From a virus (Duplodnaviria; Heunggongvirae; Uroviricota; Caudoviricetes): 18,985 bases of DNA. The stretch lies in the IMG/VR virus record IMGVR_UViG_2734482774_000015; one strand, 5' to 3'. Both the position numbers and the translations under genes were made by a program. Under the pieces are notes generated by a model that saw only the letters and a program-made list of their open reading frames with translations, had not been told where the DNA came from and ran no database searches. Shown one piece after another: positions 2,349 to 18,985 of this stretch (the first letter of the stretch is position 1; the number at the start of each line of letters is the position of its first letter).

Positions 2349-3806
2349 TTAGGAGCGCCAAAAAAAACCTGAAAACAAAATAATAACAGGATAAATTTCA
2401 AGGCGACCAAGAATCATAGCTATGCACATTAAATATTTTGCAATGTCATTAAGCACTCCGAATGACGATGCAGTAGCCCCAAAACCTAATCCCATATTAT
2501 TAATACATGCAGCCACTGTTGCAAATGATGTAAGAAAATCATATCCCATACCATTTAACACCAGTATAAAAAACACCGTGAAGAGAGTATAAAGAAAAAA
2601 GAAACTCCATACAGACCTCATTACACGATCTGTAACTATCTTCCCTCCTACATTTACACTCAACAACGCTCTGGGATGAGAAAGCTGATTTATCTCGTGT
2701 TTGCTTTGTTTGAAAAGTATAAGAAATCGAAGTGACTTAATTCCACCACAAGTTGAACCTATACATCCCCCAAAGAAACTTGACAACAGCAAAAACACTA
2801 TCGTGTGCGTGGGCCAGCTTGCATAATCCTGCATAGCTAAACCATTATCAGTGAGCATGGAGCTGGCAAGAAAAAACGAATGAATAAAACTTCCATGCAA
2901 GTCATACATACCTATATGCCAGACCTGGAAAGAGGTAACAATGATCACCCCTAAGGCTATTAACAGAAAGAAACGAAGTTCAATATCTCTGATTAAAGGT
3001 TTTATCGTTTTCCTGCTAATAACAATATACCAAAGAGTGAAGTTGAAAGCCGATAGCAGGGAAAAAGAACCAGCCACCAGCTCAACCAAATAGTTATTAA
3101 AATATCCGATACTCTCGCTATGAGTTGAGAAACCACCAAGCGAAACTGTGGAAATCCCGTGACAAATAGCATCAAACAAAGGCATTCCTGCAAGTCTATA
3201 ACAGACAATACAAGCAATACCTAATAAAGAATAAGTTATCCACAGTGTCCGTGACGTATCGGCCAGGCGGGGAGTGAGTTTGTCATCCTTAAATGGCCCC
3301 GGCATTTCTGACTGATAAAGCTTTGCACCACCAATACCCAATAATGGCAATACAGCAACCGCCAGAACAATAACTCCTAAACCACCTATAAAATTTAACT
3401 GTGACCGATAGTACAAATATGCCCGAGGTAATGAACTAACATCATCAATTACAGTTGCTCCTGTTGTTGTTATTCCAGAAACCCCTTCAAACAGAGCATC
3501 AATGAACGTTAAATTAAGTTCTGAGTCAATCCATAAAGGGAATGCACTAATAACAGAAAACAAAATCCAAAACATTACAATTATAATAAACCCATCACGG
3601 GTACGTAATTGAATGCCAGATTTCTTAGTTGTATACCACGCTCCGCCACCAATGCAAAAAAATATAACGAAAGTTATAAAGAAAACGAACAGGCTTTTTT
3701 CTTTATAAAACAATGCTACAACCATTGGTGGCAACATTGAAAGACTATAGAGCCAAACCAGGAACCCACACATATGAGTAACAACTCTTACATGAGATGT
3801 ATTCAT
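2349..3806 (-). CDS. trkG: TrkH/TrkG-family K+ uptake transporter (485 aa)
   Basis: Multi-pass hydrophobic protein with repeated pore-like GxGG segments, recognised as E. coli TrkG (Rac prophage cargo). The region is visibly AT-rich compared with flanking phage genes. The track ORF starts 18 nt upstream at a TTG; the ATG giving MNTSHVRV is preferred. Confidence 0.88.
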   Translation of the reverse strand: MNTSHVRVVTHMCGFLVWLYSLSMLPPMVVALFYKEKSLFVFFITFVIFFCIGGGAWYTTKKSGIQLRTRDGFIIIVMFWILFSVISAFPLWIDSELNLTFIDALFEGVSGITTTGATVIDDVSSLPRAYLYYRSQLNFIGGLGVIVLAVAVLPLLGIGGAKLYQSEMPGPFKDDKLTPRLADTSRTLWITYSLLGIACIVCYRLAGMPLFDAICHGISTVSLGGFSTHSESIGYFNNYLVELVAGSFSLLSAFNFTLWYIVISRKTIKPLIRDIELRFFLLIALGVIIVTSFQVWHIGMYDLHGSFIHSFFLASSMLTDNGLAMQDYASWPTHTIVFLLLSSFFGGCIGSTCGGIKSLRFLILFKQSKHEINQLSHPRALLSVNVGGKIVTDRVMRSVWSFFFLYTLFTVFFILVLNGMGYDFLTSFATVAACINNMGLGFGATASSFGVLNDIAKYLMCIAMILGRLEIYPVIILFSGFFWRS

Positions 3807-5704: not shown

Positions 5705-6787
5705 ATGAAAAAATTAACAGTGGCAATTTCTGCTGTAGCTGCATCAGTACTGATGGCGATGTCTGCTCAGGCAGCTGAAATTTATAATAAAGACAGTAAC
5801 AAGCTGGATCTGTACGGGAAAGTTAATGCTAAGCACTACTTCTCCTCTAATGATGCAGATGATGGTGATACTACTTATGCCCGTCTTGGCTTCAAAGGTG
5901 AAACCCAAATCAACGATCAACTGACTGGTTTCGGTCAGTGGGAATATGAATTCAAAGGCAACCGCGCTGAATCTCAAGGTTCCTCCAAAGATAAAACCCG
6001 TCTTGCCTTCGCTGGCCTGAAATTCGGTGACTACGGCTCCATCGATTATGGCCGTAACTACGGTGTAGCATACGATATTGGTGCATGGACCGACGTTCTG
6101 CCAGAATTCGGTGGCGATACCTGGACCCAAACAGATGTATTCATGACTGGTCGCACCACAGGTGTTGCAACTTATCGTAACAATGACTTCTTTGGTCTGG
6201 TTGATGGTCTGAACTTTGCTGCTCAGTATCAGGGTAAAAATGACCGCACTGACGTAACTGAAGCTAATGGTGATGGTTTCGGTTTCTCCACTACTTATGA
6301 GTATGAAGGATTCGGTGTAGGTGCAACCTATGCTAAATCTGACCGCACTAATAATCAGGTTATCTACGGTAACAACAGCCTGAATGCATCTGGTCAAAAT
6401 GCTGAAGTATGGGCAGCTGGTCTGAAATATGATGCGAACAACATCTATCTGGCTACCACCTATTCTGAAACCCAGAACATGACTGTTTTTGGTAATAACC
6501 ATATTGCCAACAAAGCACAAAACTTCGAAGTAGTTGCACAATATCAGTTCGACTTCGGTCTGCGTCCGTCCGTTGCTTACCTGCAATCTAAAGGAAAAGA
6601 CTTGGGTGCGTGGGGTGATCAGGACCTGGTTGAATATATTGATGTAGGTGCAACCTATTACTTCAACAAAAATATGTCCACTTTTGTTGATTACAAAATC
6701 AACCTGATTGATAAGAGCGATTTCACGAAAGCATCTGGCGTTGCTACCGATGATATCGTTGCTGTAGGTATGGTTTACCAGTTCTAA
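5705..6787 (+). CDS. nmpC: Outer-membrane general porin, OmpC/OmpF/NmpC family (360 aa incl. signal peptide)
   Basis: Signal peptide [23 protein letters not shown], Tyr/Gly-rich beta-barrel repeats and C-terminal ...VYQF. It is convergent with Q and antisense to the late operon, as in DLP12. The track ORF starts 60 nt upstream; the ATG at 5705 is preferred. Confidence 0.85.
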
Positions 6788-8849: not shown

Positions 8850-9096
8850 GCTTCACCTCCGCAGAGGCCAAACGCTGGATGCAAAAAATCGCAGGTGCAT
8901 TTCTGCATCTGTGAATGGAGAAGATAGGTTGGTTTGTATGTGCGCATAACCCCAAATCTTCATACGTTACGGTATCAAGGTAATAATCACTATTTACCTT
9001 TAGCCATTCAGTAATAAGCCTTCTCTGGCGGTTTAATGAATCACCAGACATCTGACCTGGTGATGAAAATCGCATATATGCTATGGCTTTTTTCAT
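8809..9096 (-). pseudogene. ybcK: Serine recombinase (YbcK-like) N-terminal remnant: about 49 homologous codons, then unrelated sequence
   Basis: [49 protein letters not shown] carries the resolvase catalytic Ser/Arg motif. The remaining ~46 codons are not recombinase-like and overlap the ybcN start. A full serine recombinase would be several hundred aa. Confidence 0.7.
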
Positions 9097-9351: not shown

Positions 9352-9684
9352 TTAATGTGGTGTGCTTCGTGACAATAAATTAATAACCAACACACCGGCA
9401 CAAATCAACATCATGCCTATAATGGCTGGCAGGTCCAACCGTTGGCCGAAAAATCCCCATGATAGTAAGCTAATCAGGACAATACCGACTCCTGACCAGA
9501 TAGCATAAGCAATCCCTGTAGGAATATAAGCCAGCGTCTGAGCTAATAACCAGAATGATGCACAATAACAAATAATTGTACCAACAGATGGCCATAACCG
9601 TGTAAAACCTTCTGAAAACTTCATTAAGGTTGTACCAATGACCTCTGCAAGTATTGCACCACCAAGATAAATATAAGGATTCAT
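9352..9684 (-). CDS. emrE: Small multidrug resistance efflux transporter EmrE (110 aa)
   Basis: MNPYIYLGGAILAEVIGTTLMKFSEGFTRLWPSVGTI... with four TM helices and the conserved membrane-embedded Glu. The track ORF is extended 18 codons upstream. AT-rich flanks. Confidence 0.95.
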   Translation of the reverse strand: MNPYIYLGGAILAEVIGTTLMKFSEGFTRLWPSVGTIICYCASFWLLAQTLAYIPTGIAYAIWSGVGIVLISLLSWGFFGQRLDLPAIIGMMLICAGVLVINLLSRSTPH

Positions 9685-9751
9685 AGCATATTCTTTCCTG
9701 TTCAAACTGGAGAGAATTGTACTACAGTTTGAACTCAACTCACCTGTTTCA

Positions 9752-11764: not shown

Positions 11765-12304
11765 TCATATCGCCCCCAGCATGGTAGTAACCATCGCCAT
11801 CAATGGACCAGCCAGATCTGGGTCCACACGAAACATCGACACAATACCTTCACTAATTTCCTTCAGTTTCTGGTGGCGTGGTGCGTTGAGAATGACAGCC
11901 TGTTTTGCCTCACTGAGTTCCTTTTCCATTTCAGCCAACCTAGCCATGAAGCTATCCTGCTCAACCAGGTAACCGCGATATTCCAGCGGTAGTACCGCCA
12001 GAATTGCCGGGGTCAGTTCACGCACGTTATTTCGGTATTTTTCAGAATCGAATTTGTTATCGAGGAAGCGGAACAGCTTCTGGCGTGCACGGCTGACATC
12101 ATCAGGGAAATCGATGGTGCCGCCGCCCTGCTCCCGATACTCATTCACAATGAGTGTGGCAACGACATCCTGATTATCTTCAGCCGACCAAGCGCGGACG
12201 GCATCACGGATTTTTTCGTGGCCTGGCACCTGTTTTGTTTGAGAACGATTTATCACCGCAGTCGGGCTAAATCCGCTAGTCTGTTGGTATGTAAGTGGTT
12301 GCAT
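11765..12304 (-). CDS. YdaT-like protein in the cII position (179 aa)
   Basis: ATG preceded by AAAGGAG. Located directly downstream of the cro-like gene. Weak recalled resemblance to the Rac YdaT family (IRDAVRAW..., ARQKLFRFLDNK...). Function not established here. Confidence 0.5.
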   Translation of the reverse strand: MQPLTYQQTSGFSPTAVINRSQTKQVPGHEKIRDAVRAWSAEDNQDVVATLIVNEYREQGGGTIDFPDDVSRARQKLFRFLDNKFDSEKYRNNVRELTPAILAVLPLEYRGYLVEQDSFMARLAEMEKELSEAKQAVILNAPRHQKLKEISEGIVSMFRVDPDLAGPLMAMVTTMLGAI

Positions 12305-12373
12305 AATTGACTCCTTTAGTTTGAATTGACTGTTAAGTTGATTGCTTATTGTTAAAGAGCGTGAAATGGAAAT

Positions 12374-12604
12374 TTAAGCTGCGTTCTTTTCGGTGTGTGG
12401 AAACAACTTCGGAAGATCCGGGCGAATCTGGTATGCCTTCACTACTCCACCAGTAGCCGTAACAATGCTGCCGACATGTTCAGGGGATACCTTTGCTTTG
12501 TTGTGAAGCCACTTATAGACGGCCTGCTGTGAAACTTCGCAAGCAGCGCCCAGTTTCTTTTGTGAACCAACGATATTGATCGCTGTTTTGATAGCTGGGT
12601 TCAT
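12374..12604 (-). CDS. cro: Cro-like HTH regulator, YdaS-like (76 aa)
   Basis: Divergent from cI across a 104-bp operator region. Putative HTH (QKKLGAACEVSQQAVYKWLHN). GGAGG lies 5 nt upstream of the ATG. Confidence 0.75.
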   Translation of the reverse strand: MNPAIKTAINIVGSQKKLGAACEVSQQAVYKWLHNKAKVSPEHVGSIVTATGGVVKAYQIRPDLPKLFPHTEKNAA

Positions 12605-12708
12605 AACAACCTCCGTGGTTAATTTGAATCAAGATTAAAACTATGGTTGTTTTTAGTCAACAACCATTTTCGTTTGATGGAATAAAACCTTGGTTGTACA
12701 TTTGGACT
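12605..12708. promoter_or_regulatory. oR-like divergent control region: pR for cro (minus strand, -35 TTGACT, -10 TAATCT) and a likely leaderless pRM-type start for cI
   Basis: Minus strand reads TTGTTGACTAAAAACAACCATAGTTTTAATCT, then GGAGG and the cro ATG. Dyad elements ATGGTTGT...ACAACCAT and TTAATTTGAATCAAGATTAA are present. The cI ATG at 12709 has no recognisable Shine-Dalgarno, as for λ cI. Confidence 0.65.
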
Positions 12709-13398
12709 ATGAAAACAACACTCTCAGAAAGACTTAAAGAAGCCAGATTAGCGCGAGGCCTTACACAAAAGGCGCTTGGGGATTTGGTCGGGGTTAGCCA
12801 AGCTGCTATTCAGAAAATCGAAACAGGGAAAGCTAATCAAACAACTAAAATCGTGGAGATCGCGAACGCTTTGGGTGTGCGCGCAGAATGGTTATCTTCT
12901 GGCGTTGGAAATATGTCAGACAGTACAGTGCAACCAATACAATCAACTGTCAGCCATTCCAAATACTTCAAGATTGACGTTCTTGATATAGAAGTCAGTG
13001 CTGGGCCGGGAGTCATCAACCGTGAGTTTGTAGAAGTTCTACGCTCGGTTGAGTACTCGTTTGACGATGCTCGTCACATGTTCGATGGTAGGAAGGCGGA
13101 AAATATCCGCATCATTAACGTGCGTGGTGACAGCATGTCAGGAACGATCGAACCAGGTGATCTGCTGTTCGTTGATATCACAGTTAAATCTTTCGACGGT
13201 GATGGTATCTATGCGTTTCTGTACGACGACACAGCCCATGTAAAGCGCCTGCAAATGATGAAGGATAAGCTGCTGGTCATCTCTGATAACAAAAGCTACT
13301 CACCGTGGGACCCGATCGAGAAAGACGAGATGAACCGGGTGTTCATCTTCGGTAAGGTTATTGGGAGCATGCCGCAGACATATAGGAAGCATGGTTAA
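12709..13398 (+). CDS. cI: CI-type prophage repressor with LexA-like S24 autopeptidase domain (229 aa)
   Basis: N-terminal HTH (LTQKALGDLVGVSQAAIQKIETGK), candidate Ala-Gly cleavage site (EVSAGPG), catalytic Ser in RGDSMSGTIEPGDLLFVD and Lys in HVKRL. The upstream ATG at 12643 would place coding sequence over the operators and is rejected. Confidence 0.9.
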   Translation: MKTTLSERLKEARLARGLTQKALGDLVGVSQAAIQKIETGKANQTTKIVEIANALGVRAEWLSSGVGNMSDSTVQPIQSTVSHSKYFKIDVLDIEVSAGPGVINREFVEVLRSVEYSFDDARHMFDGRKAENIRIINVRGDSMSGTIEPGDLLFVDITVKSFDGDGIYAFLYDDTAHVKRLQMMKDKLLVISDNKSYSPWDPIEKDEMNRVFIFGKVIGSMPQTYRKHG

Positions 13399-13520
13399 AG
13401 TGAGGCTAAAAAACAGTTACAGCAATAGGCCTGTTGTTTTTCTTTAAACACGCAGTGTTAAACCGCTCTTTGAGATGCGGAGTAATGAGATGGAAGACTT
13501 GAATCACATAAGGGTTAGTG

Positions 13521-14270
13521 ATGGAGTGCGTAGCGAGCAGCAATAGTGCAATACCTAATGTCGTTGAAGTAATACGTCGCATCAATGAAGGTTCCACTCA
13601 GCCATTTCTTTGCAAATGTGATGATGGGCAGTTGTATGTTTTGAAGTCAAAACCATCAATGCCCCCGAAAAATCTCTTAGCTGAGTTCATTTCGGCGTGT
13701 TTGGCTAATGATATCGGCCTTCCTTTACCTGACTTTAAAATCGTATTTGTGCCAGAGGAACTTATAGAGTACTCACCTGATCTGCAGCAACAAATTTGTA
13801 CAGGATATGCCTTTGCTTCATTGTTCATTGACGGTGCAATAGCGTTAACGTTTACGCAGTCAAGAAACGAAACGATCATCCCAGTCGAACAGCAAAAATT
13901 AATCTATGTTTTTGATAAATGGATATTAAATGCAGACAGAACGCTTACTGACAAAGGTGGAAACGTTAACATCATTTATGACATCAGTAACGATAAGTAT
14001 TATCTGATTGACCATAATCTCTCATTTGATCAGAATGCTGGACCTGAAGATTTTTCTGTGCACGTGTACGGCCCTGGTAACCGCAAATGGCAATATGATT
14101 TAGTGGATCGCGTAGAGTACCGCCAGAGGGTCGTTAACAGTTTACACAAGCTTCCTGCTATCCTTGACGAAATTCCAGAAGAGTGGATAGTAGATGAGGA
14201 GTTTTTACCTTTTGTCTGCACTACGCTAGACAAAGGTGATTGTGATGAATTTTGGAGCGCAATAGAATGA
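13521..14270 (+). CDS. Uncharacterised protein with HipA-like / kinase-like catalytic motifs (249 aa); first gene of the cassette occupying the rexA slot
   Basis: Intact ORF 120 bp downstream of cI on the same strand. Motifs FDKWILNADRTLTDKGGN and IIYDIS resemble the HipA_C catalytic and Mg-binding Asp loops. AAGGG lies 7 nt upstream of the ATG; an alternative GTG start lies at 13518. The family assignment is inference from motifs only. Confidence 0.65.
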   Translation: MECVASSNSAIPNVVEVIRRINEGSTQPFLCKCDDGQLYVLKSKPSMPPKNLLAEFISACLANDIGLPLPDFKIVFVPEELIEYSPDLQQQICTGYAFASLFIDGAIALTFTQSRNETIIPVEQQKLIYVFDKWILNADRTLTDKGGNVNIIYDISNDKYYLIDHNLSFDQNAGPEDFSVHVYGPGNRKWQYDLVDRVEYRQRVVNSLHKLPAILDEIPEEWIVDEEFLPFVCTTLDKGDCDEFWSAIE

Positions 14271-15094
14271 CAACTCCATGCCTATATAGCATCGTTCGCT
14301 ATGCGCCTTATGCGGAGACTGAAGAGTTCGCAAACATAGGCGTACTTCTGTGCGCGCCAAAAGAAAATTACTTTGATTTCCAGCTCACAAAGCGAAATGA
14401 CTCTCGTGTAAAGAATTTTTTCCATGATGATTGTATTTTCCCTGTAGCAAAAGACTCAATACAAAGAGAACTACAGTTCGCAAAAATGCATGCGACCCAG
14501 ATTGTTGGACATCAACAACTTGCACAATTCTTCAGATATTTTACAAACAAAAAAGAATCAATTTTTCAGTTCAGTTCTACGAGAGTGATTCTCAGCGAAA
14601 ACCCAAAAGAAGAGCTGGCCCGCATTTACAATAAATATGTAAACCACTCTGACTACACAAAAGAGCGCCGTGAAGATGTTCTAGCCAGAGAGCTAAAACG
14701 AAGTATCGATAGAATAGATGGATTGAAGAACGTCTTCAAACAAGCAACCATTGATGGGTATTTCGCAAAGTTCTCAATGCCATTGGTCGCCAAGAAGCAT
14801 GACAGGATCCAATGTGCCATCAAACCTCTGGCATTCACTCAAGCTGAACCAGGAAAAATGATGGAGCATAGTGATACTTGGGTGATGAGAATAACTCGAG
14901 CAGCAGAAGAAAACCTGCTTTCACTTGATGACATTTTATTCACAATTGAAACTCCTGAATCACCAAACTCAGGCCAAAGCAAAGTTATTGACATCATAAA
15001 GAGAACTATGGATGCTAAGAAAATAAATCATATACCTGCATCCAACCACAAAGAAACTATTGATTTTGCAAAAAAAATACTTCCCCAAGTTTAA
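14267..15094 (+). CDS. Uncharacterised protein with DUF3037-like N-terminus (275 aa); second gene of the cassette, translationally coupled to the first
   Basis: The ATG overlaps the upstream stop (ATGA); GGAG lies 9 nt upstream. The N-terminus CLYSIVRYAPYAETEEFANIGVLLCAP matches my recollection of the DUF3037 signature. Followed by a strong terminator. Confidence 0.65.
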   Translation: MTTPCLYSIVRYAPYAETEEFANIGVLLCAPKENYFDFQLTKRNDSRVKNFFHDDCIFPVAKDSIQRELQFAKMHATQIVGHQQLAQFFRYFTNKKESIFQFSSTRVILSENPKEELARIYNKYVNHSDYTKERREDVLARELKRSIDRIDGLKNVFKQATIDGYFAKFSMPLVAKKHDRIQCAIKPLAFTQAEPGKMMEHSDTWVMRITRAAEENLLSLDDILFTIETPESPNSGQSKVIDIIKRTMDAKKINHIPASNHKETIDFAKKILPQV

Positions 15095-15128
15095 AATTTA
15101 TTTTTGTATGTGATATTCCTTATTAATA

Positions 15129-15156
15129 ACCCGGCCACCGTGCCGGGTTTTCTTTT
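15129..15156 (+). terminator. Rho-independent terminator ending the cI-downstream cassette
   Basis: ACCCGGC-CACCGT-GCCGGGT stem-loop followed by TTTTCTTTT on the + strand. Confidence 0.75.
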
Positions 15157-15288
15157 GCCTCCCCTCATCACACAAACCGCTCAAAAAACCACCATAACCT
15201 CGCTTCAGTTATCGCTATGCGATTCAAGTCACAAAATAAATCCATCCTAAATACAACCAGTTATATCTAAAACAACCAATAAAACAAC

Positions 15289-15326
15289 TTTTGTTGTTGA
15301 CGGTAAAACAACTATAGTTTTAAATA
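15289..15326 (+). promoter_or_regulatory. oL/pL-like promoter-operator, a near copy of the pR core
   Basis: TTGTTGACGGTAAAACAACTATAGTTTTAAATA here versus TTGTTGACTAAAAACAACCATAGTTTTAATCT at pR. Upstream operator-like repeats ACAACCAG, ACAACCAAT and the palindrome CAACTTTTGTTG lie at about 15252..15296. Confidence 0.6.
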
Positions 15327-15723
15327 GGTTCATCGCAACAACACAACGATACGGCAACCACCTGATTCACCGTTGCGATGACCGCTTAGATCCGCAGTTT
15401 GAATTTCAGCAGGCTTCGGGGAGTGCGAGGGGTGAAACGGACGCGTGAACGTCGGTGTGACCAGCTGAAATCAACTCAACATTTCATACCTTAGTCGCTT
15501 CAACGAGGCGGCTTAGTTATGACAACCGGCGGCCATCCACCGCCTGAATACGCGCAGAAGTCTCTATATGTTCAGCAGCCCAGCTTCACAGCGATGCCAG
15601 AGTCTGTAGTGTCAGATGATGACCGTACTCAAACATCGGGTTGAGTATTATCTTACTGTTTCTTTACATAAACATTGCTGATACCGTTTAGCTGAAACGA
15701 CATACATTGCAAGGAGTTTATAA

Positions 15724-16005
15724 ATGAGTATCAATGAGTTAGAGTCTGAGCAAAAAGATTGGGCGTTATCAATGTTGTGCAGATCCGGTGTCTTGTCTCC
15801 ATGCAGACATCACGAAGGTGTTTATGTAGATGAAGGTATAGATATAGAGTCGGCATACAAATATTCCATGAAGGTTTATAAGTCTAATGAAGACAAATCC
15901 CCATTCTGCAATGTGCGAGAAATGACTGATACCGTGCAAAATTATTATCACGAGTACGGTGGAAACGATACTTGCCCTCTCTGTACAAAACATATAGATG
16001 ATTAA
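15724..16005 (+). CDS. ea8.5: Ea8.5-like protein (93 aa)
   Basis: Size and position (upstream of orf-55/xis) as in λ. Cys/His pattern (CRHHEG ... CPLCTKH) is consistent with a metal-binding fold. Preceded by AAGGAG. Confidence 0.8.
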   Translation: MSINELESEQKDWALSMLCRSGVLSPCRHHEGVYVDEGIDIESAYKYSMKVYKSNEDKSPFCNVREMTDTVQNYYHEYGGNDTCPLCTKHIDD

Positions 16006-16093
16006 ACCCAATATTACATAACAATCCTCGCACTCGCGGGGATTTATTTTATCTGAACTCGCTACGGCGGGTTTTGTTTTATGGAGATGATAA

Positions 16094-16300: not shown

Positions 16301-16519
16301 ATGTACTTGACACTTCAGGAGTGGAACGCTCGCCAGCGACGCCCAAGAAGCCTTGAAACAGTTCGTCGATGGGTGCGCGAATGCAGGATATTCCCTCCTC
16401 CGGTTAAGGATGGAAGAGAATATCTGTTCCACGAATCAGCGGTAAAGGTTGACTTAAATCGACCAGTAACAGGTAGCCTTTTGAAGAGGATCAGAAATGG
16501 GAAGAAGGCGAAGTCATGA
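16301..16519 (+). CDS. xis: Excisionase Xis (72 aa)
   Basis: MYLTLQEWNARQRRPRSLETVRRWVRECRIFPPPVKDGREYLFHESAVKVDLNRPVTGSLLKRIRNGKKAKS, recognised as λ Xis. The 3' end overlaps int by 23 nt, as in λ. Confidence 0.95.
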   Translation: MYLTLQEWNARQRRPRSLETVRRWVRECRIFPPPVKDGREYLFHESAVKVDLNRPVTGSLLKRIRNGKKAKS

Positions 16520-17567
16520 GCGCCGGGATTTACCCCCTAACCTTTATATAAGAAACAATGGATATTACTGCTACAGGGACCCAAGGACGGGTAAAGAGTT
16601 TGGATTAGGCAGAGACAGGCGAATCGCAATCACTGAAGCCATACAGGCCAACATTGAGTTATTTTCAGGACACAAACACAAGCCTCTGACAGCGAGAATC
16701 AACAGTGATAATTCCGTTACGTTACATTCATGGCTTGATCGCTACGAAAAAATCCTGGCCAGCAGAGGAATCAAGCAGAAGACACTCATAAATTACATGA
16801 GCAAAATTAAAGCAATAAGGAGGGGGCTGCCTGATGCTCCACTTGAAGACATCACCACAAAAGAAATTGCGGCAATGCTCAATGGATACATAGACGAGGG
16901 CAAGGCGGCGTCAGCCAACTTAATCAGATCAACACTGAGCGATGCATTCCGAGAGGCAATAGCTGAAGGCCATATAACAACAAACCCTGTCGCTGCCACT
17001 CGCGCAGCAAAATCAGAGGTAAGGAGATCAAGACTTACGGCTGACGAATACCTGAAAATTTATCAAGCAGCAGAATCATCACCATGTTGGCTCAGACTTG
17101 CAATGGAACTGGCTGTTGTTACCGGGCAACGAGTTGGTGATTTATGCGAAATGAAGTGGTCTGATATCGTAGATGGATATCTTTATGTCGAGCAAAGCAA
17201 AACAGGCGTAAAAATTGCCATCCCAACAACATTGCATGTTGATGCTCTCGGGATATCAATGAAGGAAACACTTGATAAATGCAAAGAGATTCTTGGCGGA
17301 GAAACCATAATTGCATCTACTCGTCGTGAACCGCTTTCATCCGGCACAGTATCAAGGTATTTTATGCGCGCACGAAAAGCATCAGGTCTTTCCTTCGAAG
17401 GGGATCCGCCTACCTTTCACGAGTTGCGCAGTTTGTCTGCAAGACTCTATGAGAAGCAGATAAGCGATAAGTTTGCTCAACATCTTCTCGGGCATAAGTC
17501 GGACACCATGGCATCACAGTATCGTGATGACAGAGGCAGGGAGTGGGACAAAATTGAAATCAAATAA
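16497..17567 (+). CDS. int: Tyrosine integrase Int (356 aa)
   Basis: Full-length, recognised as λ Int with only a few substitutions (MGRRRSHERRDLPPNLYIRNNGYYCYRDPRTGKEF...HELRSLSARLYEKQ...HLLGHKSDTMASQYRDDRGREWDKIEIK). Confidence 0.97.
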   Translation: MGRRRSHERRDLPPNLYIRNNGYYCYRDPRTGKEFGLGRDRRIAITEAIQANIELFSGHKHKPLTARINSDNSVTLHSWLDRYEKILASRGIKQKTLINYMSKIKAIRRGLPDAPLEDITTKEIAAMLNGYIDEGKAASANLIRSTLSDAFREAIAEGHITTNPVAATRAAKSEVRRSRLTADEYLKIYQAAESSPCWLRLAMELAVVTGQRVGDLCEMKWSDIVDGYLYVEQSKTGVKIAIPTTLHVDALGISMKETLDKCKEILGGETIIASTRREPLSSGTVSRYFMRARKASGLSFEGDPPTFHELRSLSARLYEKQISDKFAQHLLGHKSDTMASQYRDDRGREWDKIEIK

Positions 17568-17655
17568 TGATTTTATTTTGACTGATAGTGACCTGTTCGT
17601 TGCAACAAATTGATAAGCAATGCTTTTTTATAATGCCAACTTAGTATAAAAAAGC
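17568..17655. other. attL: attL: λ P' arm with arm-type Int sites, plus the 15-bp common core at 17641..17655
   Basis: TTAGTATAAAAAAGC is the reverse complement of the λ core GCTTTTTTATACTAA. The phage-side arm TAATGCCAACTTAGTATAAAAAAGC...TGATAGTGACCTG matches the λ P' arm. The sequence after the core (AGGCTTCA...) is host. Confidence 0.85.
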
Positions 17656-17701
17656 AGGCTTCAACGGATTCATTTTTCTATTTCATAGCCCGGAGCAACC
17701 T

Positions 17702-18985
17702 GTGAATACATTTTCAGTTTCCCGTCTGGCGCTGGCATTGGCTTTTGGCGTGACGCTGACCGCCTGTAGCTCAACCCCGCCCGATCAACGTCCTTCTGAT
17801 CAAACCGCGCCTGGTACCTCTTCTCGCCCGATTCTGTCGGCAAAAGAAGCGCAGAATTTCGATGCTCAACACTATTTTGCATCCCTGACACCAGGTGCTG
17901 CAGCGTGGAATCCTTCCCCGATTACCCTGCCTGCGCAACCTGACTTTGTTGTCGGCCCGGCGGGCACTCAAGGTGTAACGCATACCACGATTCAGGCGGC
18001 GGTAGATGCGGCAATTATCAAGCGTACCAACAAGCGCCAGTATATTGCCGTGATGCCTGGTGAGTATCAGGGAACGGTATATGTCCCTGCCGCTCCGGGT
18101 GGAATTACTCTGTACGGTACAGGTGAAAAACCGATTGATGTGAAGATTGGGCTTTCCCTTGATGGTGGCATGAGCCCTGCCGACTGGCGTCACGACGTCA
18201 ACCCGCGCGGCAAATATATGCCAGGTAAACCAGCGTGGTATATGTACGATAGCTGCCAGAGCAAACGCAGCGACAGTATCGGTGTTCTCTGCTCTGCGGT
18301 CTTCTGGTCACAAAACAATGGCCTGCAACTGCAAAATCTGACCATCGAAAACACGCTGGGCGATAGCGTAGATGCAGGTAACCATCCGGCGGTGGCACTG
18401 CGTACTGATGGTGACCAGGTACAGATTAACAACGTTAACATTCTCGGTCGTCAGAACACCTTCTTTGTCACCAACAGCGGTGTGCAGAACCGTCTGGAAA
18501 CGAATCGTCAGCCGCGTACGCTGGTGACCAACAGCTACATTGAAGGGGATGTGGATATCGTTTCTGGTCGCGGCGCAGTGGTGTTCGATAACACCGAATT
18601 CCGCGTGGTGAACTCACGTACTCAGCAAGAAGCGTATGTGTTTGCACCGGCTACGCTGTCCAACATTTACTACGGTTTCCTCGCCGTAAACAGCCGTTTC
18701 AATGCTTTCGGTGATGGTGTGGCGCAACTGGGCCGCTCGCTGGATGTTGATGCCAATACCAACGGTCAGGTGGTGATCCGTGATAGCGCCATCAACGAAG
18801 GTTTTAACACGGCTAAACCGTGGGCCGATGCGGTGATCTCTAATCGTCCGTTTGCGGGTAATACCGGCAGCGTAGATGATAACGACGAAATACAGCGCAA
18901 TCTGAATGACACTAACTACAACCGCATGTGGGAATACAATAACCGCGGCGTGGGCAGCAAAGTGGTTGCAGAGGCGAAGAAGTAA
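17702..18985 (+). CDS. ybhC: Host outer-membrane lipoprotein YbhC, pectinesterase-like acyl-CoA thioesterase family (427 aa), GTG start
   Basis: Lipoprotein signal with lipobox LTAC and pectinesterase-like repeats. Recognised as E. coli YbhC, the gene flanking attλ on the gal side. Confidence 0.9.
   Translation: MNTFSVSRLALALAFGVTLTACSSTPPDQRPSDQTAPGTSSRPILSAKEAQNFDAQHYFASLTPGAAAWNPSPITLPAQPDFVVGPAGTQGVTHTTIQAAVDAAIIKRTNKRQYIAVMPGEYQGTVYVPAAPGGITLYGTGEKPIDVKIGLSLDGGMSPADWRHDVNPRGKYMPGKPAWYMYDSCQSKRSDSIGVLCSAVFWSQNNGLQLQNLTIENTLGDSVDAGNHPAVALRTDGDQVQINNVNILGRQNTFFVTNSGVQNRLETNRQPRTLVTNSYIEGDVDIVSGRGAVVFDNTEFRVVNSRTQQEAYVFAPATLSNIYYGFLAVNSRFNAFGDGVAQLGRSLDVDANTNGQVVIRDSAINEGFNTAKPWADAVISNRPFAGNTGSVDDNDEIQRNLNDTNYNRMWEYNNRGVGSKVVAEAKK

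What the first reader, a model, noticed from the sequence alone, without database searches (positions are those of the whole stretch)
13399..15156. Uncharacterised two-gene cassette in the rexAB slot, co-oriented with cI: HipA-like kinase-fold protein plus DUF3037-like protein
In λ the cI transcript continues into rexA-rexB, an abortive-infection system expressed in the lysogen. Here the same slot, between the cI stop and the terminator before oL/pL, holds two different genes. They are translationally coupled (ATGA overlap) and visibly more AT-rich than cI and int. Gene 1 has HipA_C-like motifs (NADR...KGGN and IYDIS with candidate catalytic and Mg-binding Asp at about residues 139 and 154). 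Gene 2 opens with a YSIVRY...E.NIGVLL motif that I associate with DUF3037. Position, operon structure and a putative kinase make this a strong candidate for a prophage-encoded defence, superinfection-exclusion or toxin-type module. I cannot tell from here whether this exact pair has been characterised experimentally.
Basis: partly seen in the sequence, partly recalled or inferred. Interest (0 to 1): 0.9.

Follow-up and report, generated by a model that had tools for sequence, protein, structure and literature searches.

The report
Known HipAD anti-phage kinase cassette
The two genes after the prophage repressor are the already published HipAD (DS-6) anti-phage system, a small kinase and its DUF3037 partner.

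Summary
Two overlapping genes (13521-14270 and 14267-15094, ATGA overlap) lie between the cI stop and a strong terminator (15128-15149), upstream of oL/pL. They are more AT-rich than their neighbours (GC 0.41 and 0.39, against 0.465 for cI and 0.453 for int).

Gene 1 matches Pfam HipA_2 (E 1.8e-76) and its model has a kinase fold. Gene 2 matches DUF3037 (E 7.6e-24). Both match the PADLOC candidate system PDC-M66.

The pair is already characterised. Gene 2 is identical, and gene 1 is 248/249 identical, to DS-6B and DS-6A of the DefensePredictor study. That system was renamed HipAD and was also reported by Brenes & Laub 2025. GenBank phage PhiR5_1 annotates the same genes, 99.9% identical, as HipA toxin and HipD antitoxin.

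In the published data DS-6 lowers Bas1 plating by 10^4 to 10^5. In a homologous pair, deleting the DUF3037 gene is toxic.

The cassette (13395-15123) is a swappable insert. Relatives with the same cI have an empty slot or other gene pairs there.

Minor additions: the Mg-binding Asp is probably D164, not D154. The C-terminal domain of HipD has a restriction-endonuclease-like fold. Novelty: already known.

The parts
12709..13398 (+). cI-like repressor (context). The mechanical ORF starts at 12643. The likely true start is M23, at 12709.
   Evidence: HTH_3 plus Peptidase_S24. The RefSeq homologue WP_000858975.1 is 229 aa. The palindrome at 12643-12667 overlaps the longer ORF start.
13395..15123 (+). 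Limits of the exchangeable HipAD cassette, relative to a prophage with the same cI and an empty slot
   Evidence: Homology to E. coli 6EVA (L002) ends at window 13394 and resumes at 15124. In 6EVA, 119 bp replace the 1.73 kb.
13399..13520 (+). 122-bp spacer between the cI stop and the hipA start. It contains a Shine-Dalgarno-like AAGGG and no terminator.
   Evidence: Sequence. No terminator or strong promoter was found here. The only promoter candidate is weak, 8 of 12 matches, at 13470-13499.
13521..14270 (+). hipA (DS-6A): 249-aa minimal HipA_2-family kinase, the effector
   Evidence: Pfam PF20613, E 1.8e-76. PADLOC PDC-M66A, 8.6e-15. 248/249 identical to WP_000389051.1 / PhiR5_1 HipA. Model pLDDT 89, kinase fold. 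K42, E55, D139, N148, N150 and D164 are invariant.
14267..15094 (+). hipD (DS-6B): 275-aa protein with an N-terminal DUF3037 domain (residues 7-125) and a C-terminal restriction-endonuclease-like domain (about 132-275). Proposed antitoxin or regulator.
15128..15156 (+). Intrinsic terminator closing the cI-hipA-hipD transcription unit. It belongs to the conserved backbone, not to the cassette.
   Evidence: Hairpin AACCCGGCCACCGTGCCGGGTT followed by TTCTTTT. It lies inside the segment shared with the empty-slot relative.

Best explanation
This is the HipAD anti-phage system, also called DS-6 and matching PADLOC candidate PDC-M66. It is carried as a moron cassette in the immunity operon of a lambdoid prophage.

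**Shown by others for these same proteins.** Placed on a low-copy plasmid with its native upstream region, the pair reduces plating of phage Bas1 by 10^4 to 10^5. This needs the catalytic Asp139 of the kinase.

**Shown for a homologous pair.** Deleting the kinase abolishes defence. Deleting the DUF3037 gene is toxic. So the kinase acts as a toxin and the DUF3037 protein restrains it.

**Inferred here.**
- In the lysogen the two genes are co-transcribed with cI. There is no terminator between cI and hipA, and one shared terminator follows hipD. A weak promoter of their own is possible.
- The 4-nt ATGA overlap would couple HipD synthesis to HipA synthesis.
- HipA is a minimal protein-kinase-like enzyme with residues K42/E55, D139, N148/N150 and D164.
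- HipD holds HipA inactive through a complex. AlphaFold3 predicted such a complex in the published work.
- On infection by a sensitive phage the restraint is lost. HipA then phosphorylates a target that is still unknown. By analogy with HipA acting on GltX and HipT acting on TrpS, the target is probably a component of translation. This stops growth and aborts the infection.
- The C-terminal restriction-endonuclease-like domain of HipD probably binds DNA, either for autoregulation or for sensing. It probably does not cut DNA.
For: **Identity**
- Gene 2 equals DS-6B exactly. Gene 1 differs from DS-6A only at I152L (sequences).
- The region is 99.9% identical in DNA to phage PhiR5_1, annotated 'HipA toxin / HipD antitoxin'.
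- DS-6 is stated to be the same as HipAD of Brenes & Laub 2025.

**Function**
- DS-6 against Bas1: -log10 EOP 3.90 in the screen and 5.18 in the retest. D139A: 0.88.
- For the homologous pair next to Retron-Sda1, deleting HipA removes defence and deleting DUF3037 is toxic.

**Fold and residues**
- HipA_2, E 1.8e-76.
- The kinase-fold model matches PI4KII-alpha at 1e-6, CtkA at 3e-6, HipA at 2.8e-4 and HipT at 2.7e-3.
- The invariant residues are the canonical kinase residues.

**Operon**
- ATGA overlap. The 4-nt overlap is also present in the Pseudomonas pair and in the 44%-identical Salmonella/E. coli pair.
- The terminator comes only after hipD.

**Slot**
- The same cI occurs with an empty slot, or with GevT/GevA or other gene pairs.
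- A 44%-identical HipA_2/DUF3037 pair follows a different CI-type repressor in Salmonella and E. coli prophages.
Against: - The primary paper (Brenes & Laub 2025) could not be read here. What it shows about toxicity, abortive infection or triggers for this allele is not known to me.
- No kinase target, no trigger and no proof of abortive infection appear in the texts I could read. The DefensePredictor authors call the toxin-antitoxin / abortive-infection model a hypothesis.
- The toxicity of the DUF3037 deletion was shown for a homologue whose similarity to this pair I could not measure, not for this pair.
- Transcription from the cI promoters is inferred from anatomy only. DS-6 worked from its own upstream region on a plasmid, so read-through from cI is not required.
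- This window's HipA carries I152 where the tested protein has L152. The change is conservative and untested.
Confidence: 0.85

Rival explanations
1. Direct, non-abortive defence. HipA phosphorylates a phage protein, or a host factor the phage needs, and blocks the phage without killing the cell. HipD acts as specificity or sensor subunit rather than as an antitoxin.
For: Defence requires kinase activity, and no target is known. HipD is large (275 aa, two conserved domains) for a simple antitoxin. In the rows of Table S7 that I read, strong DS-6 defence appears only against Bas1. I did not read the whole 24-phage panel.
Against: Deleting the DUF3037 partner of a homologous pair is toxic without phage. 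This means the free kinase has a host target.
Confidence: 0.15
2. HipD is the effector. Its C-terminal restriction-endonuclease-like domain is an active nuclease, and HipA phosphorylation switches it on or off.
Against: There is no conserved acidic residue in strand 2 or two residues before K186 (the sequences there are 'MPLVA' and 'CAIKP'), so the canonical metal site is incomplete. Removing the DUF3037 protein is toxic and removing the kinase abolishes defence in the homologue. That is the opposite of what a nuclease effector predicts. Foldseek E-values are all 0.05 or higher.
Confidence: 0.05
3. The pair is mainly an addiction (post-segregational killing) module that stabilises the prophage. 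The phage defence seen on plasmids is a side effect.
For: It has toxin-antitoxin-like genetics and sits on a mobile element.
Against: An integrated prophage segregates with the chromosome and gains little from addiction. The slot also holds other defence-type pairs such as GevAT, and rexAB in lambda (lambda from established knowledge). The defence is strong (10^4 to 10^5) and depends on the catalytic residue.
Confidence: 0.05

Closest known systems
HipAD, also called DS-6 (Brenes & Laub 2025, Cell Host Microbe 33:1004; DefensePredictor, Science 2026, PMC13092281)
   Same: These are the same proteins: HipD 275/275, HipA 248/249. They have the same gene order and 4-nt overlap, and the same position after the same cI in phage PhiR5_1.
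   Different: The only protein difference is I152 here against L152 in the tested protein. This copy lies in a prophage at the lambda attachment site that lacks the kil-gam-bet-exo block.
PADLOC candidate system PDC-M66 and the HipA-like/DUF3037 pair next to Retron-Sda1 (PMC12548924)
   Same: Both proteins hit the PDC-M66A and PDC-M66B models. The two-gene architecture is the same. The kinase is needed for defence and loss of DUF3037 is toxic.
   Different: These are more distant homologues, with PADLOC E-values of about 1e-15. The Sda1 copy sits in a retron locus, and the C-terminus of its DUF3037 protein is reported to resemble a retron DNA-binding protein.
Canonical HipBA of E. coli K-12 (HipA kinase toxin, HipB HTH antitoxin)
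   Same: A protein-kinase-like Ser/Thr kinase toxin with a catalytic Asp, restrained by a partner protein. HipA structures are among the fold matches.
   Different: - No Pfam HipA_C or HipA_N hit. The protein is 249 aa against about 440 aa and lacks the N-terminal subdomains.
- The partner is DUF3037, not an HTH protein, and is encoded downstream rather than upstream.
- The target is unknown. For HipA it is GltX (as cited).
- The structural neighbours PI4KII-alpha and CtkA score better than HipA.
Lambda RexAB
   Same: Same genomic slot, between the cI stop and the terminator before oL/pL. Same orientation as cI, and the same logic of a lysogen-expressed exclusion module (lambda from established knowledge; anatomy here).
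   Different: The proteins are unrelated. RexAB is a membrane-acting pair, whereas this pair is a soluble kinase and its partner.
GevAT in phage PhiR47_2
   Same: It occupies the same slot behind a near-identical cI and is annotated as a toxin/antitoxin pair.
   Different: The genes are different: GevT is 357 aa and GevA is 125 aa. No relation to HipA_2 or DUF3037 was tested.

Membership tests
HipAD / DS-6 | Sequence identity to the experimentally tested proteins WP_000389051.1 and WP_000210934.1 | tested here: met
   248/249 and 275/275 identical. The sequences come from Table S of PMC13092281.
HipAD / DS-6 | Catalytic Asp139 of the kinase, required for defence | tested here: met
   D139 is present in NADR and invariant in 34 homologues. 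The published D139A mutant loses defence.
HipAD / DS-6 | Anti-phage activity of this particular allele (I152) in its own prophage | not testable with these tools
   This needs a plaque assay. The tested allele has L152.
PADLOC PDC-M66 | Adjacent genes matching both the PDC-M66A and PDC-M66B models | tested here: met
   E 8.6e-15 and 3.8e-16, genes overlapping by 4 nt. PADLOC's own system-level thresholds were not applied.
Pfam HipA_2 (PF20613) | Score above the gathering threshold over the full profile | tested here: met
   257 bits against a cut-off of 27, profile positions 1-239 of 240.
Pfam DUF3037 (PF11236) | Score above the gathering threshold | tested here: met
   84.6 bits against a cut-off of 22.6, residues 7-125. 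All 45 aligned homologues also match.
Canonical HipBA toxin-antitoxin | HipA_C / HipA_N domains | tested here: not met
   No HipA_C or HipA_N hit at E <= 1. The protein has only 249 aa.
Canonical HipBA toxin-antitoxin | Upstream HTH antitoxin HipB | tested here: not met
   The partner is downstream and is DUF3037 plus a restriction-endonuclease-like domain. No HTH family hit. The only upstream HTH protein is the phage repressor cI.
Protein-kinase-like fold | Bilobal kinase fold with a beta3 Lys, an alphaC Glu, a catalytic Asp and a Mg-binding Asp | tested here: met
   Model pLDDT 89.1, pTM 0.88. Twenty-eight PDB matches at E <= 1e-3; all of the top 50 listed matches, which extend to E 3.2e-3, are kinases. 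K42, E55, D139 and D164 are invariant.
PD-(D/E)xK nucleases (HipD C-terminal domain) | Restriction-endonuclease-like alpha-beta-beta-beta-alpha-beta core | tested here: inconclusive
   [not shown]
PD-(D/E)xK nucleases (HipD C-terminal domain) | Catalytic D...(D/E)xK residues | tested here: not met
   K186 is invariant, but there is no conserved acidic residue in strand 2 or at position 184.

The most novel reading that the evidence does not exclude
The C-terminal domain of HipD may be a degenerate NgoMIV/Cfr10I-type restriction-endonuclease fold. It has an invariant K186 and an invariant E200 fourteen residues later, but lacks the strand-2 Asp.

On this reading the domain acts as a nucleic-acid sensor. 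Binding of phage DNA, or of a replication intermediate, would release the HipA kinase. HipAD would then be a DNA-sensing kinase switch rather than a classic toxin-antitoxin pair in which a labile antitoxin is degraded.

Neither paper I could read describes this fold. They report only DUF1829 at 78% HHpred probability and an AlphaFold3 DNA contact.
Probability: 0.2. Interest if true: 0.45.

Novelty: already known. Interest (0 to 1): 0.15.

Why it matters
As a discovery it matters little. The pair was found twice independently and validated in 2025-2026, it has a name (HipAD/DS-6), and it is annotated in GenBank.

It is useful as a calibration point. Reading raw sequence alone, the first stage identified a real defence system, its slot logic and even the catalytic residue that was later mutated.

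What remains open for the field is mechanistic:
- the substrate of this minimal kinase;
- the phage trigger;
- the job of the two HipD domains.

The population data here give context for the rexAB slot as a defence hotspot. The cassette is always linked to one cI type, is present in 284 of the 1,520 complete E. coli genomes carrying that cI, and alternates with empty slots and other gene pairs.

Tried and rejected
**Literature**
- The primary paper (Brenes & Laub 2025) is not held under its DOI or PubMed id, and no PMC id appears in four citing papers. Searches for 'HipD' and 'HipAD' returned mostly unrelated abbreviations.
- No later mechanistic paper on HipA-like anti-phage kinases turned up.

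**Sequence searches**
- Sequence searches of PDB with either protein or either profile gave nothing meaningful.
- NCBIfam has no model for either protein. PHROGs gives only unknown-function families 3162 and 5137.
- Pfam scans of 45 HipD homologues found no family for the C-terminal domain. The DUF1829 link reported by others at 78% HHpred probability could not be reproduced with HMMER.

**Features looked for**
- An independent promoter in the 122-bp spacer: only a weak candidate with 8 of 12 matches.
- A put-like or other structured RNA between pL and kil: no Rfam hit even at E <= 1, and the fold z-score is -0.30.
- Minus-strand ORFs inside the cassette (93 aa or shorter) and a minus-strand terminator-like site at 14973-14954. 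I treated these as chance: 6 terminator-like sites were found against 2.8 +/- 1.6 expected.

**My own error.** I first took 17702-18985 to be int. It is the host gene ybhC.

Full report
**1. What is in the sequence**

The window carries a cro-like gene (12374-12604, minus strand). Facing it is a cI-like repressor ORF (12643-13398, plus strand) with HTH_3 and Peptidase_S24 domains.

After a 122-bp spacer come two plus-strand genes. Gene 1 runs 13521-14270 (249 aa from the ATG; a GTG lies one codon upstream). Gene 2 runs 14267-15094 (275 aa). The stop of gene 1 and the start of gene 2 overlap in ATGA at 14267-14270.

No terminator-like site lies between cI and gene 1. The best terminator in the region is AACCCGGCCACCGTGCCGGGTT plus TTCTTTT at 15128-15156, just after gene 2. 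It is followed by AACAAC/GTTGTT operator-like repeats and a pL-like promoter near 15296-15335; these two I read by eye from the sequence, and the promoter scan lists no plus-strand site there.

GC content is 0.408 and 0.391 for the two genes. It is 0.465 for cI, 0.453 for int and 0.452 for the prophage part of the window. The only adjustment is that 13399 is the base after the cI stop, not a gene start.

**2. What the proteins are**

- Gene 1 matches Pfam HipA_2 (PF20613) over the whole profile: E 1.8e-76, 257 bits against a cut-off of 27. It does not match HipA_C.
- Gene 2 matches DUF3037 (PF11236) at residues 7-125, E 7.6e-24. Its C-terminal 150 residues match no Pfam family.
- Both proteins match the two components of the PADLOC candidate system PDC-M66, at 8.6e-15 and 3.8e-16.
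- PHROGs places them in unknown-function families. NCBIfam has no model for either.

**3. The pair is already characterised**

Megablast against phage records finds Escherichia phage PhiR5_1 (PV340545.1). It is 99.9% identical over 94% of window 12300-15800, and the two genes are annotated 'HipA toxin' and 'HipD antitoxin' directly after cI. At protein level the identity is 248/249 for HipA and 275/275 for HipD.

[quoted passage not shown] DS-6A is a HipA-related kinase and DS-6B has DUF3037. The paper states that DS-6 was 'independently discovered ... (renamed HipAD)' by Brenes & Laub, Cell Host Microbe 2025. Its supplementary tables give the DS-6 sequences (WP_000389051.1 and WP_000210934.1, from an ECOR assembly). 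Window gene 2 is identical to DS-6B, and gene 1 differs from DS-6A only at I152L.

The plaque data list DS-6 against Bas1 at -log10 EOP 3.90 in the screen and 5.18 in the retest. The D139A mutant scores 0.88.

A homologous HipA-like/DUF3037 pair next to Retron-Sda1 defends against Bas51 on its own. Deleting the kinase abolishes defence, and deleting the DUF3037 gene is toxic (PMC12548924).

I could not obtain the Brenes & Laub paper itself.

**4. Independent checks of the fold**

I collected 71 HipA_2 homologues and more than 120 DUF3037 homologues. They come mostly from Enterobacterales, with more distant ones in Pseudomonas, Idiomarina and sphingomonads.

*Kinase.* In a 34-sequence alignment the invariant residues include K42, E55, D139, R140, N148, N150 and D164-H165-N166. 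These correspond to the beta3 lysine, the alphaC glutamate, the catalytic loop and a DFG-like Mg-binding Asp. The AlphaFold2 model is confident (pLDDT 89.1, pTM 0.88). Foldseek against PDB returns only kinases among its top 50 hits:
- PI4KII-alpha, 1e-6
- H. pylori CtkA, 3e-6
- Fam20C
- Shewanella HipA, 2.8e-4
- E. coli HipA
- Legionella HipT

The kinase fold is confirmed. The protein is a minimal relative of HipA, not a canonical HipA: it has no N-terminal subdomains, no HipB partner, and the toxin gene comes first.

The C-terminal domain has the alpha-beta-beta-beta-alpha-beta order of this fold. Invariant E136 lies in the first helix, invariant K186 in the third strand (AIKPLAF), and E200, H201 and D203 in the next helix. 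No conserved acidic residue lies in strand 2 or two residues before the lysine.

From memory, the lysine-to-glutamate spacing of 14 resembles NgoMIV (K187, E201). This is a lead, not a test. I read the domain as a probably inactive nuclease-like module that may bind DNA. That fits the AlphaFold3 DNA contact reported for DS-6B, ipTM 0.67.

**5. The slot is an exchange point**

The window is a lambdoid prophage at the lambda attachment site. xis lies at 16301-16519 and int at 16497-17567. The last 1.3 kb (17702-18985) is the host gene ybhC.

- E. coli 6EVA has a nearly identical cro-cI-O-P region, but homology stops at window 13394 and resumes at 15124. There, 119 bp stand in place of the 1.73-kb cassette. 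The terminator therefore belongs to the backbone, and the cassette sits exactly between the cI stop and that terminator.
- Phages with almost the same cI carry GevT/GevA (PhiR47_2) or other two-gene sets in the slot.
- In 5,426 complete E. coli genomes, this cI is present at 80% coverage or more in 1,520. The cassette is present in 284, at 99% identity or more, always chromosomal. The cI-plus-cassette query also reaches 80% coverage in exactly 284 genomes, so the cassette is always contiguous with this cI.
- The same module occurs in a prophage at tRNA-Thr/proA.
- A pair only 44% identical sits behind a different CI-type repressor in Salmonella and E. coli prophages. A Pseudomonas pair stands outside any obvious prophage. 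Both keep the 4-nt overlap.

**6. How it most likely works**

*Shown by others.* Defence depends on the kinase. In a homologue, the free kinase is toxic.

*Inferred from anatomy.* The genes are expressed in the lysogen as the distal part of the cI transcript, like rexAB in lambda. [quoted passage not shown] I found only a weak candidate, 8 of 12 matches, at 13470-13499. The overlap would couple HipD synthesis to HipA synthesis.

*Inferred by analogy with HipBA and HipBST.* HipD binds and silences HipA. Infection releases HipA, which phosphorylates a host factor, probably in translation, and aborts the infection.

*Rivals.* The alternatives are direct phosphorylation of a phage target, HipD as a nuclease effector, and a pure addiction module. 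All are less likely, for the reasons given in the rivals section.

**7. Verdict**

The pair is already known and experimentally validated, so interest as a new finding is low. What remains unknown is the kinase substrate, the trigger, and the roles of the DUF3037 domain and the nuclease-like domain of HipD.

Noticed in passing
window 12643-12709: The mechanical cI ORF (251 aa, also used in GenBank PV340545) begins inside a 25-bp perfect palindrome, ATGGTTGTTTTTAGTCAACAACCAT. This looks like an OR operator. RefSeq homologues start at Met23 (window 12709, 229 aa), which is probably the true start.
   Followed up: partly
window 15586-16046: Homology to PhiR5_1 and to the E. coli 6EVA prophage ends at 15586, and lambda ea8.5-like DNA follows. 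About 5.3 kb is missing here, including the kil, gam, bet and exo genes. The prophage therefore lacks its Red recombination genes and may be defective.
   Followed up: partly
window 16301-18985: The right end of the window is the prophage-host junction at the lambda attachment site: xis 16301-16519, int 16497-17567, then the host gene ybhC at 17702-18985.
   Followed up: yes
window 2349-3806, 5705-6787, 9353-9685: AT-rich cargo genes of the DLP12/Rac type lie among the late and nin-region genes: trkG (potassium transporter), an ompC/nmpC-like porin and emrE (SMR efflux pump). Local GC is 0.32-0.39.
   Followed up: partly
window 15296-15520: No N-like ORF lies between the pL-like promoter and the kil region, here or in PhiR5_1. 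The 186-nt leader gives no Rfam hit and folds no better than shuffled sequence (z -0.30). How early leftward antitermination works in this phage group is unclear.
   Followed up: partly
window 11765-12304 (-): The 179-aa protein in the cII position is annotated 'cII' in the phage record. RefSeq calls it a 'toxin YdaT domain-containing protein'. It is much longer than lambda CII.
   Followed up: no
[not shown]
   Followed up: partly
window 8941-8949: Relative to the E. coli 6EVA prophage, the window lacks a 2.6-kb segment (L002 9522-12168). That segment carries a hypothetical gene, a P22AR C-terminal-domain gene and the recombinase gene ybcK.
   Followed up: no
L003 1668-3096 (PhiR47_2); L004 1046-2501 (PhiR68_2): Other cargo occupies the same slot behind closely related cI genes. 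PhiR47_2 carries GevT/GevA, annotated as toxin/antitoxin. PhiR68_2 carries an unannotated pair of 341 aa and 149 aa.
   Followed up: no
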